27,818 nt of DNA, from the IMG/VR virus record IMGVR_UViG_2740892369_000014. One strand, given 5' to 3'. This document shows, piece after piece, positions 15,001 through 21,000 of the stretch. Position numbers: made by a program. Every line of letters begins with the position of its first letter. Positions within the stretch are counted from its first letter, which is position 1. Source of the DNA: a virus. Its lineage: Duplodnaviria > Heunggongvirae > Uroviricota > Caudoviricetes.

Positions 15001-18000
15001 CGTCGTATCGCCAGGATTCATTGCGCCAGCGCCGGTACTCTTCCATCACGGCATCCACCGTAAGACCAAATGGATTTGCCCCACTCTCCGAAATCAGCGC
15101 AACAAACTCAGCCAGGTCCGGGGGCCACGTTTCACCCGCCCGGCAGCGGTCCATGCACTGACGGCAGACCAGACGGATTTGCTGTTCAGTCATCGCACCA
15201 ATCTGGGCAATCCAGAGCTTCGAAGGTGCGGCCCCGTTCTTCTGAGTCCAGCGGTTCGAATACACCTCCCCCATAAGCTCCCACAGCTTCCAGGCCGTTT
15301 CCGTTGCTGATAAATCCGTTTTCACGTTCCCACTGTTCGCGTGCTGCCCGGATTTCCTGAACTGCCCGTGATGCCGTGCCACCTGATGCTGCATGGCTTA
15401 CCCCCTTGCTGACTGGTTTTACCTGTGCCCTGACGTGCTGCACGTGGCGGGCAAATTTCTGCTCCCACTGAACCTGCGTGAAAACCTTCCCCTCCGCCAT
15501 CCAGTAATCCCGGAATGCGGCAAGCTCAGCAGGTGTAAATTCCGGCTCAGGCAGAGCCATACCCCACACTGCTGCCCGTTGTCGAAAATCCGGCGACGGC
15601 TGCCAGACAGTAGTCATCGAAAATTTCCCGATCGGTTCGCTCAGGCCGTCCAGGTATTCAGGTTCGGCTGTCTGCAACGGCGCACCATGCGACTCACTGG
15701 TCGGAATACTCTCGCGTTCACGCACGTTATGTGTGGGGTTTAATTCTTTTAGATCTGTATCTTTATTAGTTGCTTTTGTGTTTGCGTCATGTTCAAACAC
15801 AACACCAACATTTGTTTGAACACCTGTTAAATCTCTCTCTTGTTTTGTTTGAACATATGCTTCCTTTCTGCTTCTTCTGGCCTGAACAGATGCTTTTCCG
15901 GCGGCTGATTTTTTGGTCAATTTTTCCCTGACTGATGCCAGATCTTCCTCAATCCGAAGATGCACCCATTCATCGCTGTTATCGCAAAAAAACTCCCGCA
16001 AGGATGGTTCCACATCAGCCCATCGCTCGTTAGTCAGACGGGAAATTTTTGCCAGCCTGTTTTTAGGTATTGGTTTCCCTGTTTGCCAGTAATTGAACAT
16101 CAGCAACAAATACGCACCGTGCTCCTCTGCGGACAAATGCATGGTGTCAGCCAGGTAATCAGCTATGTACAGTTGCATGTATGGTAATGCGGCCATAATT
16201 GCCTCATCTTGTGACGAACCATCCTCTGGTGATATTCTGTGATTCCCCAATCAACAGAATCAGCAGGGGTCTGGCATAAATATCAATGCACCACAACAGA
16301 CTCGCCGGATGACCCGCCGTCGCTGAAATACGCTTTCCGGTAAACTGCCTGGACTGCATCATCATGCGCATCAATTGCCGTGCTCAACGCTTCCTGGGCC
16401 GCCAGTAATGCACGGCGCTCAACAGTGTCAAAAATACTGAGGTGATAACGCAGTTCACGCGGAAGAACAGTCAGGATAGCTGGAATTAGTGCCTGAATTT
16501 TTTCAACAGCATCAGGCGTATCCTTTTCAAGCCAGCGAAAAATATTTTGTATGTTCAATCCAATACCCTCTGTCGTAGAGGTGTCATGCATTGGTGGATA
16601 AGTCATTTCAAGCTCAAAATATGCTGTCGCTATATCATCAGCGATTTTTTTGCGCCCTACCCTCGGATAAAGCAGCCACGCATTCATCGCCATGCGGATG
16701 TGCTCATGCTTGATTTTCATGAATCAACTCCCGCCGCTGCTTGTGCGTTAGCCTGATACTCAACAGGTAAACCATCGGTTGGATTAGGGTATTTATCAGG
16801 GCGCAATTCATGCGGAGTTACTCCCCAGTCAAGCGCCTCACATGCTGGTATAACCTCCTCCGCTGGCACTCGTTTTTTAAACCACCCACTTATGGTTTGC
16901 GGTGTTTTACCAAGACGACGCCCTAATTCTGATTGGCTCATTATTGACAGGATTTTCACTTGAGTACTTTTTTGCATGTTTCCCTCCGAACTTTACGATG
17001 ACACCGATAATTACAAATTTAAATTTAAATTTCAACTTCTATTTGTAATGCCACTTATCAATTTTTTCTGTAGGATCGCGGAACTAGTTTACGAGGGGTG
17101 GTGATGATCTTTGTAAAACGCCTTCAGCAGGTGTTGCAGGAATTGAATATAAACCAGTCAGAGCTGGGAAGACGTCTTGGTGTAAAACCCCAATCCGTGC
17201 AAGGTTGGTTGAAAGGCGTGATGCCAAGAATGGATAAACTGGAAAAATTAGCAGAGCTCTCACAACATCCCGTCCATTGGTTCTTTATGGAAGAAGAAAC
17301 TCTCGGCGATAAAATGGCTGTATCCAGTAATGACAACCAACCGCAACTTACAGAACAACAACGAAAAATCATATCGCTTTTAGATGAGTTACCTCAAAGC
17401 GACGCAGAGCAGATCATTCGTGATATGGAGCAAAAACGCGATTTCTATAAACGGAAACTTGAAGAGTTACTGCGGCAGAAAAACAAAACTGCCTGATGCA
17501 TTCCTTTTCTGGAACGAGCATCAGGCAAATGACTAGCAGATTTTATAATCCAACCAGGCTTTCCAGGGGGATACCAAATTGATTATGAAGACGGCGAATC
17601 ATTGGTAACGTAAGGCTTCTGGTACCATTCAACACCTCATAAACCCGATTTTTTTTCCCAATTGCGGGTTCCAAATCTTTCACAGTCAGCCCCTGCTGTT
17701 CCATGCGAAATCTTATAGCTTCAATTGGGGATGGTGGCTCAATGGGATAATGTTTTTTTTCATATTCCTCTATTAGCAAACACATCACCTCAAAAAAATC
17801 CCCCTCAGGCGTGTCAATTTCGGGCTCATTGTCGAACATGGGTTCAACAGCACGCAACGCGGCTTCATAATCTTGCTCTGTACGAATAGGTTTGATGTTC
17901 ATGCTTACTCCAGTTCGATGGTATCAGCATCAATAGCATCGTATTCCTTGTGGTTTCCGATGAATTTAACAAATACCCATCCTCGCTGATACGCAATTGC

Positions 18001-21000
18001 AACAATTAAACGGTAATGATTACCTTTTATGTTGAATACCACGCGCCGGTTTTTCAATATACTGGCCGTTCGGTATTGTGCCTTAATGTCTGCTGGGCTT
18101 TTCCAGTCAGCTTTTGCCGCCTCATCCACCCATGCCCTTAGCGGTTGTTCTGCATCAGGATTCTCCGCCCAAAAATCCCTGAGTGTTTTAACTGAGATAA
18201 TCTTCATAACTGTATAGTAGTCCCATTTTGGGACTGATGCAACAGCCCGCAATTACAAATTTAATAATAAACATGTTGACCAGTTAAATTTTAATTTGTA
18301 AATTGTATCCATAAACCCACCCCGCCCCACAGAACGCAGGGCAATACTTCGAGTTACCCGGCAGTGGTCAGGGGTTAAGTAGCCAGCCTGAGGCGTATGA
18401 ACATGACGGCGGGGATTACGTTTAACTATGCAGCAGGTTTTTTGTTCCGCTACCCCGGCGTTAAGGGGAAACAGAGGATTTCTCAGTGGGCGAAGTCAAA
18501 CATCAGAATGGAAGGCATCCAGGGATCAGCAAAGAAACAGCGATGGCGCTTTATATTGATATCAGCGCCATTGCCGGACAGGTAAGAATTATCAGAGCGG
18601 TAACTAAGCGGTATGCGCCTTTACTTCAGAAAGTCTCTGGTGAGTGCACCGAAGATATTGTCAACGATTTCGTCATCAAACTGCGAGGACTCATCTTCAG
18701 TTACAAGGTGACCACAATTTTTGCAGATGGCTCCCGCGAAACTGTCAGAGCCATGCGGTTTAAAGGATGTGTCAAAGACTTCGCCACCACATTCTGGGCA
18801 AGAAAACTTGATTGTATTCATAACCAATTTCCTCTCGAGTAACAGACCCCTCAGAGGATACCACCTCGCCTGACGTGGTTAAAAGCAGGCAGCGCTAACC
18901 ACAAGGAGCCGACATGCAGAAACGAGAACCCGTCATCATCGCGCCAGACTATACCGATGATGAACTTTATGAGTGGATGCACCAGAAAATTAAGGCAGCG
19001 CAGGACCTGAAATGGGCCAATGAAGCCAGGGCTAAGCAGGCTGAAAATCTGTCCGCTCTGGAGCAGGATATCACCAATCTGGAAAAAGCAGCGGCATTAA
19101 GCATTGCCAGAATGATTACATACCCGCGTTAATAGCTAACCAACGAAGCTAAGGTTGGTAATTAAGGAGTTCTCCACGGGTGAGGTGGAGTGCGTGCGCC
19201 GGACACGGGTGAGCATCCGGCACTGACAGTTTACTGAAAGGATATTTCCCTGAAAAGTCAGACCATAACGCGAAAGCGCACGGCGAGGTAGCTGGTTCAT
19301 AGATAGCCTGTCGTTAAATTTTCGTCGACCGTGCGCTTCCGGTTGTGGCAATCCGCGAAATGGCGCGGCGGTAAGTATGGCGGGGTTATTCCTTCCCCAG
19401 TTGAGGACACCGGGTTGTCAGGTTGACCATACGCTTAAGTGACAACCCCGCTGCAACGCCCTCTGTTATCAATTTTCTGGTGACGTTTGGCGGTATCAGT
19501 TTTACTCCGTGGCTGCTCTGCCGCCCTTTTTAAAGTGAATTTTGTGATGCGGTGAATGCGGCTCAGCGCACGCGGAACAGTTAAAACCAAAAACAGTGTT
19601 ATGGGTGGATTCTCTGTATCCGGCGTTAATTGTTAACTGGTTAACGTCACCTGGAGGCACCAGGCACCGCATCACAAAATTCATTGTTGAGGACGCGATA
19701 ATGGAAACGTTATTACCAAACGTTAATACGTCTGAAGGTTGTTTTGATATTGGTGTTCTGCTCAGTAACCGGGAGTTTACTGAAGATGCCATTAATATGA
19801 GGAAATATGAGCCTTATCTGCTCAATGATAATTCCATACTTTCCCGAATTGCTCTTCTTGAACTTGGTATTTTCGGAGAACGTCAATAACTTCAGCATTT
19901 GCACTGATGATGACGGTTTTTCTTATAACGGGTGAATCACAGAATGTGATTACCGGAATTTATGCCAGTAAAGAATCCTGCCTCCAGGCAAGAGACGAGC
20001 AAAAAATTTCTGGTGAATGCCTCCCGGTAAAAAAAGTATCGCTGTACCTGAATAACGAAACACCGGCTGGATAACCCTCCAGCCATATTAACACCATACC
20101 AACGGATTAAAAATGCCAGCAATGGCAGGGATTCGTTCACCCTGAAATCTGTAATGAGGTAAAACAAAATGAGTAAAGTCTTTATTTGCGCCGCCATTCC
20201 GGACGAACAGGCAATAAAGGAAGAAGGTGCAGTCGCTGTAGCCACTGCCATTGAAGCCGGTGATGAACGTCGCGCCCGCGCAAAATTTCACTGGCAATTC
20301 CTGGAACATTATCCGGCTGCTCAGGACTGCGCTTATAAATTTCTTGTTTGCGAGGATAAACCCGGTATTCCCCGCCCTGCCCTCGATTCCTGGGATGCTG
20401 AATATATGCAGGAAAACCGCTGGGATGAGGAGTCTGCTTCCTTTGTCCCGGTTGAGACTGAATCAGATCCGATAAACGTCACTTTTGACAAGCTGGCCCC
20501 TGAAGTACAGAACGCTGTCATGGTTAAGTTCGACACATGTGAAAACATCACCGTTGATATGGTGATTAGCGCGCAGGAACTGTTGCAGGAAGACATGGCA
20601 ACATTCGACGGACATATCGTTGAAGCGTTGATGAAAATGCCAGAAGTTAACGCCATGTATCCGGAGCTTAAGCTGCATGCCATCGGGTGGGTTAAGCATA
20701 AATGTAAGCCAGGTGCCAAATGGCCCGAAATTCAGGCAGAGATGCGCATCTGGAAAAAACGTCGCGAAGGTGAACGCAAGGAAACCGGAAAATACACGTC
20801 TGTTGTTGATCTCGCCCGCGCCAGAGCCAATCAACAGCACACTGAAAATTCAACAGGAAAAATCAGCCCGGTCATTGCTGCCATTCATCGCGAATACAAG
20901 CAGACATGGAAAACACTGGATGACGAACTGGCCTACGCTCTCTGGCCTGGTGATGTGGATGCCGGAAACATTGACGGCAGCATCCATCGCTGGGCAAAAA

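What the first reader, a model, noticed from the sequence alone, without database searches (positions are those of the whole stretch)
17009..18305. Same operator motif at the immunity region and the leftward operon promoter
The 14-mer AATTACAAATTTAA and its inverted partner ATTTGTAA occur both between the divergent cro-like and cI-like genes (17009-17049) and flanking the candidate dicB-operon promoter (18251-18305). This defines a probable two-site regulon for the DicA-like repressor.
Basis: seen in the sequence. Interest (0 to 1): 0.4.

Follow-up and report, generated by a model that had tools for sequence, protein, structure and literature searches.

The report
Prophage repressor operators at two promoters
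The repeated AT-rich motif is real and is most likely the binding site of a prophage repressor, placed both at the repressor/cro switch and at the promoter of the dicF-dicB cell-division-inhibitor operon; this is the classic phage-lambda layout with a new DNA sequence, so it is correct but ordinary.

Summary
AATTACAAATTTAA occurs exactly twice in the window, at 17009 and 18251, each time with an inverted ATTTGTAA partner.

The window is a lambdoid (Qin/Rac-like) prophage of E. coli O26/O103. Site 1 lies between a YdaS-type cro-like gene and a short DicA-like HTH repressor gene. Site 2 carries a strong sigma-70 promoter, TTGACC-17-TAAATT, that reads into ydfC-dicF-dicB.

I read the motif as four 18-bp operators, consensus YTRCAAAT-NN-AAWWTTAA. 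One operator at each site covers the spacer and -10 of a lytic promoter; the second lies upstream of that promoter's -35.

Relatives from Salmonella, Sodalis, Serratia, Arsenophonus and metagenomes keep both sites, the spacing and an invariant recognition helix. They keep site 2 even when the HigBA toxin-antitoxin cassette that separates repressor and site 2 here is absent. So site 2 belongs to the repressor, not to HigBA.

Heteroimmune relatives (K-12 Qin and a PaaR2-type prophage) have different operators at the same two places.

This is the OR/OL design already shown experimentally for Qin DicA and CP-933P PaaR2/YdaS. It is a new member of a known kind. Protein binding was not tested.

The parts
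16283..16720 (-). YdaT-family (CII-like) regulator gene
   Evidence: Pfam PF06254 E 1.2e-10; PHROG 163 'CII-like transcriptional activator' E 5e-37.
16710..16727 (.). Perfect YdaT-type inverted repeat TTGATTTTCATGAATCAA (PRE-like site) at the ydaS-like stop / ydaT-like start
   Evidence: It is the only zero-mismatch match to TTGATTN6AATCAA in the window. It has the same motif and the same location (end of ydaS) as the footprinted YdaT site of CP-933P (PMC9986795).
16717..16977 (-). Cro-like regulator (YdaS family), first gene of the rightward-type early operon
   Evidence: Pfam YdaS_toxin 34.6 bits, above the cut-off of 30. PDB hit to a Cro protein, 3bd1. Its HTH, QSELGRRLGKTPQTISGW, is 58% identical to the repressor HTH and invariant in 10 relatives.
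17007..17035 (-). PR-like promoter for the cro-like gene: -35 TTGAAA (17035-17030), 17-nt spacer, TG-extended -10 AATTAT (17012-17007)
   Evidence: Promoter scan. The CAA of the -35 is invariant in 11 relatives (A2). This is a prediction; the transcription start site was not mapped.
17011..17028 (+). Operator OR1, TTACAAATTTAAATTTAA, covering the spacer and -10 of the PR-like promoter
   Evidence: Top PWM hit, 26.6 bits. 17 of 18 positions are the reverse complement of OL1. Core positions are invariant in relatives.
17031..17048 (-). Operator OR2 (reads TTACAAATAGAAGTTGAA on the - strand); overlaps the PR-like -35 (17030-17035), extends upstream of it, and abuts the -35 of the repressor promoter
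   Evidence: PWM 15.8 bits, fourth best in the window. TTGyArTG is invariant across relatives.
17048..17076 (+). Inferred PRM-like promoter of the repressor gene: weak -35 ATGCCA (17048-17053), 17-nt spacer, -10 TAGGAT (17071-17076)
   Evidence: T17071, A17072 and T17076, plus TG at 17069-17070, are invariant in 11 relatives, whereas the -35 is poorly conserved (A2). This is an inference. The alternative + promoter (16998-17025) is not conserved.
17104..17496 (+). Repressor gene (130 aa, HTH_3, DicA-like architecture, no peptidase domain)
   Evidence: Pfam HTH_3. NCBIfam DicA hit at 49.9 bits, below the cut-off of 101. 22% identity to K-12 DicA over the full length. Recognition helix VKPQSVQGWL is invariant in relatives of 47-100% identity.
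17490..17527 (.). Perfect 10-bp stem (TGCCTGATGC / GCATCAGGCA) between the convergent repressor and higA genes; likely a terminator hairpin
   Evidence: Inverted repeat I19. It was not called by the terminator scan because it has no T run.
17543..18207 (-). HigB (17905-18207) and HigA-like (17543-17902) toxin-antitoxin cassette occupying the cargo slot between the repressor gene and OL
   Evidence: Pfam HigB_toxin E 5e-33 and HTH_3. RefSeq annotation. The cassette is absent or replaced by other cargo in relatives.
18213..18241 (-). Inferred higBA promoter: TTGCAT (18241-18236), 17-nt spacer, TACTAT (18218-18213), with the 7-3-7 palindrome AGTCCCAtttTGGGACT (18219-18235) in the spacer; ATG lies 5 nt (18212-18208) after the -10
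   Evidence: Read from the sequence. The geometry TTGnnn-17-TAnnnT is kept in variants L002, L003 and L030 despite substitutions. This is an inference.
18253..18270 (+). Operator OL2, TTACAAATTTAATAATAA, upstream of the -35 of the dicB-operon promoter
   Evidence: PWM 19.6 bits, third best. Conserved in relatives without HigBA. Homology among relatives starts at this box (A3).
18276..18304 (+). PL-like promoter (dicBp equivalent): -35 TTGACC, 17-nt spacer, -10 TAAATT; predicted start at A18311
   Evidence: Promoter scan. TTGAC, T18299, A18300, T18304 and A18311 are invariant in 9 relatives. The geometry matches K-12 dicBp: TTGACC-17-TAATCT followed by CATCAAC.
18284..18301 (-). Operator OL1 (reads TTACAAATTAAAATTTAA on the - strand), covering the spacer and -10 of the PL-like promoter
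   Evidence: PWM 25.9 bits, second best. 17 of 18 positions match OR1. ATTTGTA is invariant in relatives.
18311..19889 (+). Controlled transcript: conserved leader (18311-18416), ydfC (18914-19132), DicF RNA (19475-19526), dicB (19701-19889); it continues into the DUF1482 and exonuclease genes
   Evidence: Rfam DicF 75 bits. RefSeq annotation. The leader from about 18314 onward is shared by more than 3000 E. coli genomes of any immunity type.

Best explanation
These are the right and left operators (OR and OL) of a lambdoid prophage immunity switch.

Four 18-bp operators share the consensus YTRCAAAT-NN-AAWWTTAA: a strong outer half-site and a weaker inner one. They are recognised by the 130-aa HTH repressor and, with different preference, by the YdaS-type Cro-like protein, which carries nearly the same HTH.

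In a lysogen the repressor occupies OR1 and OL1. These sit over the spacer and -10 of the two lytic promoters, so it shuts off the cro-ydaT-replication operon and the ydfC-dicF-dicB-exonuclease operon.

The partner operators OR2 and OL2 lie 20 and 31 bp away, centre to centre, which is two and three helical turns. They probably allow cooperative binding. OR2 abuts the weak -35 of the repressor's own promoter and may activate it.

The HigBA cassette between the repressor gene and OL is independent cargo with its own promoter and operator.

Shown here: the sequences, their non-random pairing, their conservation, and their co-variation with immunity type. Inferred: who binds, the transcription start sites, cooperativity and autoactivation.
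For: 1. Statistics. The exact 14-mer occurs twice, and the four boxes are the four best PWM hits of the window using a matrix built from non-E. coli relatives. The reciprocal E. coli-derived matrix picks the OR and PL boxes in Sodalis, Arsenophonus, Serratia and metagenome loci, but scores no higher than 13.1 in the heteroimmune controls.

2. Position. OR1 and OL1 occupy the same place (about -13/-14) in two predicted sigma-70 promoters that face outward.

3. Conservation. Box cores, the -35 and -10 elements and the spacing are invariant in 9-11 relatives, while the flanks are not. The repressor and Cro-like recognition helices are invariant.

4. Linkage. 148 E. coli genomes carry site 1 plus the repressor, and 148 carry site 2. 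More than 3000 share only the sequence from about 18314 onward, so the immunity module ends at the predicted start site. All 23 IMG/VR loci that carry the repressor have site 2.

5. Independence from HigBA. Site 2 is present where HigBA is absent, in L036, L039, L040, L041 and L042.

6. Co-variation. K-12 Qin and a PaaR2-type prophage have their own, different repeats at the same two places. Within-type OR/PL matches (11-16) exceed cross-type matches (7-10.5).

7. Precedent. DicA represses dicCp and dicBp through operators (PMC10448788, PMC3441716). PaaR2 and YdaS footprint OR and repress PL933P about 100-fold (PMC8630535).
Against: - No binding, footprint, start-site or expression data exist for this immunity type; everything is from sequence.
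- The 18-bp operator definition is weakly palindromic (5 of 8 half-site positions) in very AT-rich DNA, so the true unit could be the outer 9-mers alone.
- OR2 scores only 15.8 bits, within the range of the best shuffle hits (maximum 18.3).
- Salmonella relatives L032-L035 show OR but no OL within 3.5 kb downstream.
- In Salmonella L030, OR boxes read TTGCAAAT while OL reads CTACAAAT, so the match between sites is not always exact.
- OL2 lies where an UP element would sit.
Confidence: 0.8

Rival explanations
1. Site 2 belongs to the HigBA cassette. On this reading the inverted boxes are the HigA (or HigBA complex) operator and promoter of the toxin-antitoxin operon, and their likeness to site 1 is incidental.
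For: Site 2 lies directly upstream of higB on the - strand, only 10 bp beyond the inferred higBA -35. HigA has an HTH domain. In all 148 E. coli genomes of this type, HigBA and site 2 travel together.
Against: Site 2, with the same boxes and promoter, is present in Sodalis, Arsenophonus, Serratia and two metagenome loci that have no HigBA. HigBA has its own conserved palindrome, AGTCCCAtttTGGGACT, inside its own TTGnnn-17-TAnnnT promoter. The boxes match site 1, which is more than 1.2 kb away from HigBA.
Confidence: 0.03
2. There is no specific operator. The similarity reflects two AT-rich promoters of common descent (promoter duplication, UP elements, or nucleoid-protein sites such as H-NS or IHF), and the repressor acts elsewhere or through different bases.
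For: The region is extremely AT-rich with AAATTT repeats. The boxes overlap -10 elements, which are conserved in any case. OL2 sits at -42 to -59, the UP-element zone. H-NS/Cnu affects the homologous Qin switch (PMC3441716).
Against: The invariant positions include C and G of TRCA/TGYA outside the -35 and -10 hexamers, at OR2 and OL2. The boxes co-vary with immunity type, whereas the promoter geometry and the downstream leader do not. Both HTH recognition helices are invariant together with the boxes.
Confidence: 0.07
3. The proteins are the same but the geometry differs. The functional units are the outer 9-bp half-sites (ATTACAAAT / ATTTGTAAT), 31 and 42 bp apart, which is three and four helical turns. 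One tetramer or dimer of dimers binds each pair and clamps or loops the promoter, rather than two conventional 18-bp operators per site.
For: The outer half-sites are the best-conserved part. The inner halves are weak, at 5 of 8 positions. The spacings are integral helical turns and are fixed across relatives. PaaR2 and lambda CI form octamers (PMC8630535).
Against: Known relatives use compact operators: the 20-bp Oc of DicA and the 18-bp palindromes of CP-933P. AA at positions 11-12 and 17-18 of the 18-mer is kept in all four boxes of the window. Serratia L040 has its distal box in another position and orientation.
Confidence: 0.15

Closest known systems
Qin prophage DicA / DicC / dicBp of E. 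coli K-12
   Same: A short (about 130-135 aa) non-cleavable HTH repressor with the same two-part architecture. A divergent cro-like gene. A second operator lies between the -35 and -10 of a TTGACC-17-TAnnnT promoter that drives ydfABC-dicF-dicB, followed by CATCAAC (PMC10448788, PMC3441716).
   Different: Only 22% identity, and below the NCBIfam DicA cut-off. The operator sequence is unrelated: Oc is TTGTTAGTCATAACTAACAA, and no such site occurs here. The cro partner is YdaS-type with no similarity to DicC. Here a HigBA cassette and an extra roughly 100-nt leader are present, and ydfA/ydfB are absent.
CP-933P immunity region of E. coli O157:H7 (PaaR2 / YdaS / YdaT with PR933P, PRM933P, PL933P, PRE933P)
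   Same: A YdaS-type Cro analogue and a YdaT-type CII analogue. 18-bp operators are repeated at OR and at a PL promoter. A toxin-antitoxin module sits between the repressor gene and PL. A TTGATTN6AATCAA YdaT site lies at the end of ydaS (PMC8630535, PMC9986795).
   Different: The repressor here shows no sequence similarity to the PaaR2-type regulator of L043. The half-site is different (GTTTAGTAA there). The TA module there is co-transcribed with the repressor, whereas here HigBA is on the opposite strand with its own promoter.
Bacteriophage lambda cI / Cro with OR and OL
   Same: The logic is the same. Repressor and Cro share operators. One set lies between divergent PR and PRM, and a second set lies at PL beyond a cargo slot (rexAB in lambda). 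A CII-type activator site lies at the cro/cII junction.
   Different: No sequence relationship. Two clear operators per site rather than three. The repressor has no RecA-cleavable C-terminal peptidase domain (Pfam finds HTH only). There is no N gene downstream of PL.
Rac prophage RacR / YdaS / YdaT
   Same: The same YdaS and YdaT families are repressed from a divergent intergenic region (PMC5700373, listed).
   Different: RacR itself was not compared here. The left operon of this window is of the Qin (dicF-dicB) type.

Membership tests
Lambdoid immunity switch with OR and OL operator sets | Divergently transcribed HTH repressor and cro-like genes | tested here: met
   ORFs 16717-16977 (-) and 17104-17496 (+). 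Pfam YdaS_toxin/HTH_3 and HTH_3. PHROG transcriptional repressor/regulator.
Lambdoid immunity switch with OR and OL operator sets | Repeated operator boxes in the intergenic region overlapping the divergent promoters | tested here: met
   OR1 (17011-17028) and OR2 (17031-17048) overlap the predicted PR-like promoter and abut the PRM-like promoter. They are conserved in 11 relatives.
Lambdoid immunity switch with OR and OL operator sets | The same boxes at the promoter of the opposite early operon | tested here: met
   OL1 matches OR1 at 17 of 18 positions. OL2 carries the identical 14-mer. Both lie around TTGACC-17-TAAATT.
Lambdoid immunity switch with OR and OL operator sets | Operators co-vary with the repressor (immunity specificity) | tested here: met
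   Three immunity types carry three different box sets at the same two positions. PWM hits occur only in loci with the same recognition helix.
Lambdoid immunity switch with OR and OL operator sets | Repressor and Cro physically bind the boxes and repress both promoters | not testable with these tools
   Needs EMSA, footprinting or reporter assays. There is only indirect support from the shared, invariant HTH motifs.
DicA subfamily (NCBIfam NF007257) | Score at or above the curated cut-off (101 bits) | tested here: not met
   49.9 bits, E 2.7e-13, aligned over the full length 3-129 / 6-132. BLASTP to K-12 DicA gives 22% identity, E 2e-7. It is DicA-like, not a DicA orthologue.
DicA subfamily (NCBIfam NF007257) | Recognises the Oc-type operator TTGTTAGTCATAACTAACAA | tested here: not met
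   The boxes here are YTRCAAAT-type. The K-12 locus scores no higher than 12 bits with this window's matrix.
DicA subfamily (NCBIfam NF007257) | Sits upstream of, and controls, the dicF-dicB operon promoter | tested here: inconclusive
   The position and the operator at the promoter are as in Qin. Control itself was not measured.
YdaS (Cro analogue) family, Pfam PF15943 | Profile match above the gathering score | tested here: met
   34.6 bits against a cut-off of 30. PDB Cro 3bd1, E 0.0046.
YdaT (CII analogue) circuit | YdaT-family protein plus a TTGATTN6AATCAA site at the end of ydaS | tested here: met
   PF06254 E 1.2e-10. A perfect motif at 16710-16727. The location is as in CP-933P.
PaaR2-type repressors | Sequence similarity to the regulator encoded upstream of paaA2-parE2 | tested here: not met
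   No BLASTP alignment to the regulator of L043. However, a 72%-identical relative of this window's repressor precedes a PaaA2 gene in Salmonella L034.
HigBA autoregulatory operator (rival assignment of site 2) | The site occurs only together with higBA | tested here: not met
   Site 2 is present in five HigBA-less loci.

The most novel reading that the evidence does not exclude
The paired boxes, phased at whole helical turns, together with the 1.27-kb OR-OL separation, could reflect a higher-order repressor assembly. Such an assembly would clamp each promoter and loop OR to OL, enclosing the HigBA cassette inside the repression loop. Toxin-antitoxin expression and the dicF-dicB cell-division inhibitors would then be coupled to the state of the prophage switch. 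The same specificity group (invariant recognition helices and operators) is shared by prophages of Escherichia, Salmonella, Serratia and the insect symbionts Sodalis and Arsenophonus.
Probability: 0.15. Interest if true: 0.45.

Novelty: new member of a known kind. Interest (0 to 1): 0.25.

Why it matters
It gives a concrete, testable operator consensus and promoter map for an uncharacterised immunity type carried by about 3% of complete E. coli genomes (148 of 5426), mostly O26, O103 and O111-type STEC. [quoted passage not shown]

It also shows that the slot between the repressor gene and OL is a cargo site. That slot holds HigBA here and other defence-like genes in relatives.

It does not change how such switches are understood. 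The design is that of lambda, Qin and CP-933P.

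Tried and rejected
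- A search of GTDB genomes with short peptide patterns from the repressor found no relatives. Relatives came instead from the protein database plus contig look-ups.
- The PDB holds no DicA-like or PaaR2-like structure detectable with the repressor. The only hit is the N-terminal HTH region of the query (residues 2-52), to PDB chain 2kpj_A, which its depositors named a LexA SOS-response repressor.
- The + strand promoter ATGACA-16-TAAATT (16998-17025) from the scan is rejected as the repressor promoter. Its -35 is not conserved in relatives, whereas TGTAGnAT at 17069-17076 is invariant.
- A third operator (OR3) at 17056-17073 scores only 6.3 bits here, although four relatives have a palindrome TACAGAAAnTTTCTGTA there. 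It is left as uncertain.
- A possible third site upstream of the exonuclease gene (20106-20155) has no PWM support and lies in DNA shared by all immunity types, so I treat it as chance. Single 9-mers at 22785 and 25007 are at chance frequency.
- I tested whether the leader after the promoter is a known RNA. There is no Rfam match even at E = 1, and HK022 is not among the phages sharing it.
- No OL was found within 3.5 kb in Salmonella loci L032-L035. This is unexplained; it may be lost or lie further away.

Full report
**What is in the sequence**

The 14-mer AATTACAAATTTAA occurs exactly at 17009-17022 and 18251-18264 and nowhere else in the window. With up to three mismatches there are 13 matches against 4.3 expected, 8 of them inside the two sites, and none of 100 shuffles reaches 13.

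Each copy has an inverted partner:
- ATTTGTAAT at 17041-17049, a perfect 9-nt inverted repeat with 17010-17018.
- ATTTGTAAA at 18294-18302.

The longest relation between the sites is an 18-mer. 17011-17028 (TTACAAATTTAAATTTAA) is the reverse complement of 18284-18301 at 17 of 18 positions. The bare 9-mer is not enriched on its own, so the signal is in the longer boxes and their pairing.

**Context**

The window is 100% identical to a prophage of E. coli O26, O103 and related STEC strains. Annotation and profile searches give this order:
1. YdaT/CII-like gene, 16283-16720 (-).
2. YdaS/Cro-like gene, 16717-16977 (-).
3. Site 1.
4. A 130-aa HTH repressor, 17104-17496 (+).
5. A hairpin.
6. HigA-like gene 17543-17902 and HigB 17905-18207, both (-).
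7. Site 2.
8. A conserved leader, an antisense zinc-ribbon ORF, ydfC, DicF RNA (75 bits), dicB, a DUF1482 gene and an exonuclease gene, all of the operon genes on the + strand.

The repressor's best NCBIfam match is DicA over its full length, but at 49.9 bits against a cut-off of 101. It is 22% identical to K-12 DicA. The cro-like protein is YdaS-type and unrelated to DicC. The repressor has no peptidase domain.

**Promoters**

Site 2 contains TTGACC-17-TAAATT on the + strand (18276-18304). Site 1 contains TTGAAA-17-(TG)AATTAT on the - strand (17035-17007). These are predictions only.

Both predicted promoters point outward, towards dicB and towards cro. In both, an 18-mer box covers the last part of the spacer and the start of the -10, with the box's C or G at about -13/-14.

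K-12 dicBp has the same geometry: TTGACC-17-TAATCT followed by CATCAAC, with an Oc-like sequence in the same place.

For the repressor gene, the scan's + strand candidate (16998-17025) is not conserved. In contrast, TGTAGGAT (17069-17076) has T, A and T of a -10 hexamer invariant in 11 relatives, behind a poorly conserved -35 that abuts the right-hand box. I therefore infer a weak, possibly repressor-activated PRM-like promoter, as reported for DicA and PaaR2.

**Operator model**

Read as 18-mers in a common orientation, the four boxes are:
- TTACAAATTTAAATTTAA (OR1, 17011-17028)
- TTACAAATAGAAGTTGAA (OR2, 17031-17048, - strand)
- TTACAAATTTAATAATAA (OL2, 18253-18270)
- TTACAAATTAAAATTTAA (OL1, 18284-18301, - strand)

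Across relatives the consensus is YTRCAAAT-NN-AAWWTTAA. The half-site centres are 10 bp apart, as expected for an HTH dimer, but the inner half is weak.

Centre-to-centre distances between the 18-bp operators are 20 bp at OR and 31 bp at OL. Between the outer half-sites they are 31 and 42 bp. All are whole helical turns, which is compatible with cooperative binding.

Which unit is actually bound cannot be decided from sequence. I keep the clamp (tetramer) geometry as a rival.

**Comparative tests**

1. *Linkage.* 148 of 5426 complete E. coli genomes carry site 1 plus the repressor, and 148 carry site 2. More than 3000 genomes share only the sequence from about 18314 onward. The immunity module therefore ends at the predicted start site, A18311, which is itself invariant. 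All 23 IMG/VR loci that carry the repressor also have site 2.

2. *Independence from HigBA.* Relatives of the repressor at 47-89% identity were located in E. coli, Salmonella, Sodalis, Serratia, Arsenophonus and metagenomes. Sodalis L036, Arsenophonus L039, Serratia L040, L041 and L042 have no HigBA. They nevertheless have site 2 with the same boxes, the same promoter and the same CATCAAC start. This removes the rival that site 2 is the HigBA operator. HigBA also has its own conserved palindrome inside its own promoter.

3. *Footprint-like conservation.* In alignments of 11 site-1 and 9 site-2 sequences, the box cores, the -35 and -10 elements and the spacing are invariant, while the flanks diverge. 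Homology at site 2 begins at the left box.

4. *Protein side.* The repressor recognition helix VKPQSVQGWL and the Cro-like QSELGRRLGK-PQT are invariant across all relatives. The two proteins also share this HTH with each other, at 58% identity over 26 residues.

5. *Cross-validation.* A matrix built only from non-E. coli boxes ranks the four boxes as the top four hits of the window: 26.6, 25.9, 19.6 and 15.8 bits. The best outside hit is 13.3. The best shuffle hit averages 13.2, with a maximum of 18.3. An E. coli-derived matrix finds the OR and PL boxes as top hits in the foreign loci. It scores no higher than 13.1 in the heteroimmune controls.

6. *Co-variation.* K-12 Qin (TGTTAGTCATnnCTAA) and a PaaR2-type prophage (AATAGCAnTGnTATT) carry their own repeats at the same two positions, upstream of the same leader or start. 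Within-type OR/PL matches exceed cross-type matches.

**Exceptions**

- Salmonella loci L032-L035 show OR but no OL within 3.5 kb.
- In Salmonella L030 the OR boxes read TTGCAAAT while OL reads CTACAAAT, so position 3 is evidently tolerant.
- Serratia L040 has its distal OL box displaced and inverted.

**Comparison with what is known**

The design is that of lambda. It has been shown experimentally in the two nearest systems.
- DicA represses dicCp and dicBp and binds Oc (PMC10448788, PMC3441716).
- In CP-933P, PaaR2 and YdaS footprint 18-bp repeats at OR and repress a PL promoter with matching operators about 100-fold, with a toxin-antitoxin module between repressor and PL. YdaT binds TTGATTN6AATCAA at the end of ydaS (PMC8630535, PMC9986795).

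The window even carries a perfect TTGATTTTCATGAATCAA at 16710-16727, at the end of its ydaS-like gene.

The present locus differs in four ways: its operator sequence, a repressor that falls below the DicA family cut-off and is unrelated to the PaaR2-type regulator, the mixed pairing of a DicA-like repressor with a YdaS-type cro, and the HigBA cargo on the opposite strand.

**Verdict**

Three amendments apply: four boxes rather than two, HigBA lying in between, and a repressor that is DicA-like rather than DicA.

This is a new member of a well-known kind. Binding and regulation remain to be shown. Interest is low to moderate.

Noticed in passing
window 18311-18416 (also L036, L039, L041, L042, L043): A conserved 5' leader of about 105 nt starts at the predicted dicB-operon start site. 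More than 3000 E. coli genomes share it whatever their immunity type, as do Sodalis and Arsenophonus prophages and an Actinobacillus phage; K-12 Qin lacks it. A 5-6 bp stem (CAGGG/CCCUG) around a conserved 15-nt loop, CAAUACYnCGAGUUA, shows compensatory changes. A second block, AAGUAGCCAGCCYGAGGCRUAnGAACAUGACGGC, is nearly invariant. There is no Rfam match, and HK022 is not among the phages sharing it. Its function is unknown; an antitermination or processing element is possible.
   Followed up: partly
window 16710-16727: A perfect YdaT-type inverted repeat, TTGATTTTCATGAATCAA, sits on the overlap of the ydaS-like stop and the ydaT-like start. It has the same motif and location as the footprinted YdaT site (PRE region) of CP-933P.
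   Followed up: partly
window 18208-18241: The HigBA cassette seems to have its own promoter, TTGCAT-17-TACTAT, with a perfect 7-3-7 palindrome, AGTCCCAtttTGGGACT, filling the spacer; this is a likely HigA operator. The higB ATG lies only 5 nt (18212-18208) after the -10, which suggests a leaderless higB mRNA. The geometry is kept in E. coli and Salmonella variants.
   Followed up: partly
window 17497-18250; L030, L032, L034, L040 at the same relative position: The slot between the repressor gene and OL holds different cargo in relatives: HigBA (E. coli, Salmonella L030), a PLD-family protein (L032), PaaA2 plus a TM2 protein (L034), two unknown ORFs (Serratia L040), or nothing (Sodalis, Arsenophonus, L041, L042). 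It is comparable to the rexAB slot of lambda and to paaA2-parE2 of CP-933P.
   Followed up: partly
window 17056-17073; L036, L040, L041, L042 at the aligned position: In four relatives the region over the inferred repressor-promoter -10 forms a near-perfect palindrome, TACAGAAAnTTTCTGTA, whose half-site resembles the operator half-site. This may be a third operator for autorepression. In the window the left half is degenerate and the PWM score is only 6.3.
   Followed up: partly
L039 about 7100-7200: The Arsenophonus contig carries a second copy of the conserved leader about 3 kb downstream, preceded by a different AT-rich repeat (TAAGATAACTTAAATTTAAGTT). This suggests a second, heteroimmune PL-type module nearby.
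   Followed up: no
window 18621-18827 (-): A 68-aa zinc-ribbon ORF (ECs_2282 family) lies antisense within the predicted dicB-operon transcript, in the place where K-12 and some relatives have ydfA-ydfB.
   Followed up: no
window 20106-20155: A weak inverted pair of operator-like 9-mers (ATTAAAAAT / ATTACAGAT, 41 bp apart) lies just upstream of the exonuclease gene. It has no PWM support and sits in DNA common to all immunity types, so it is probably chance.
   Followed up: partly
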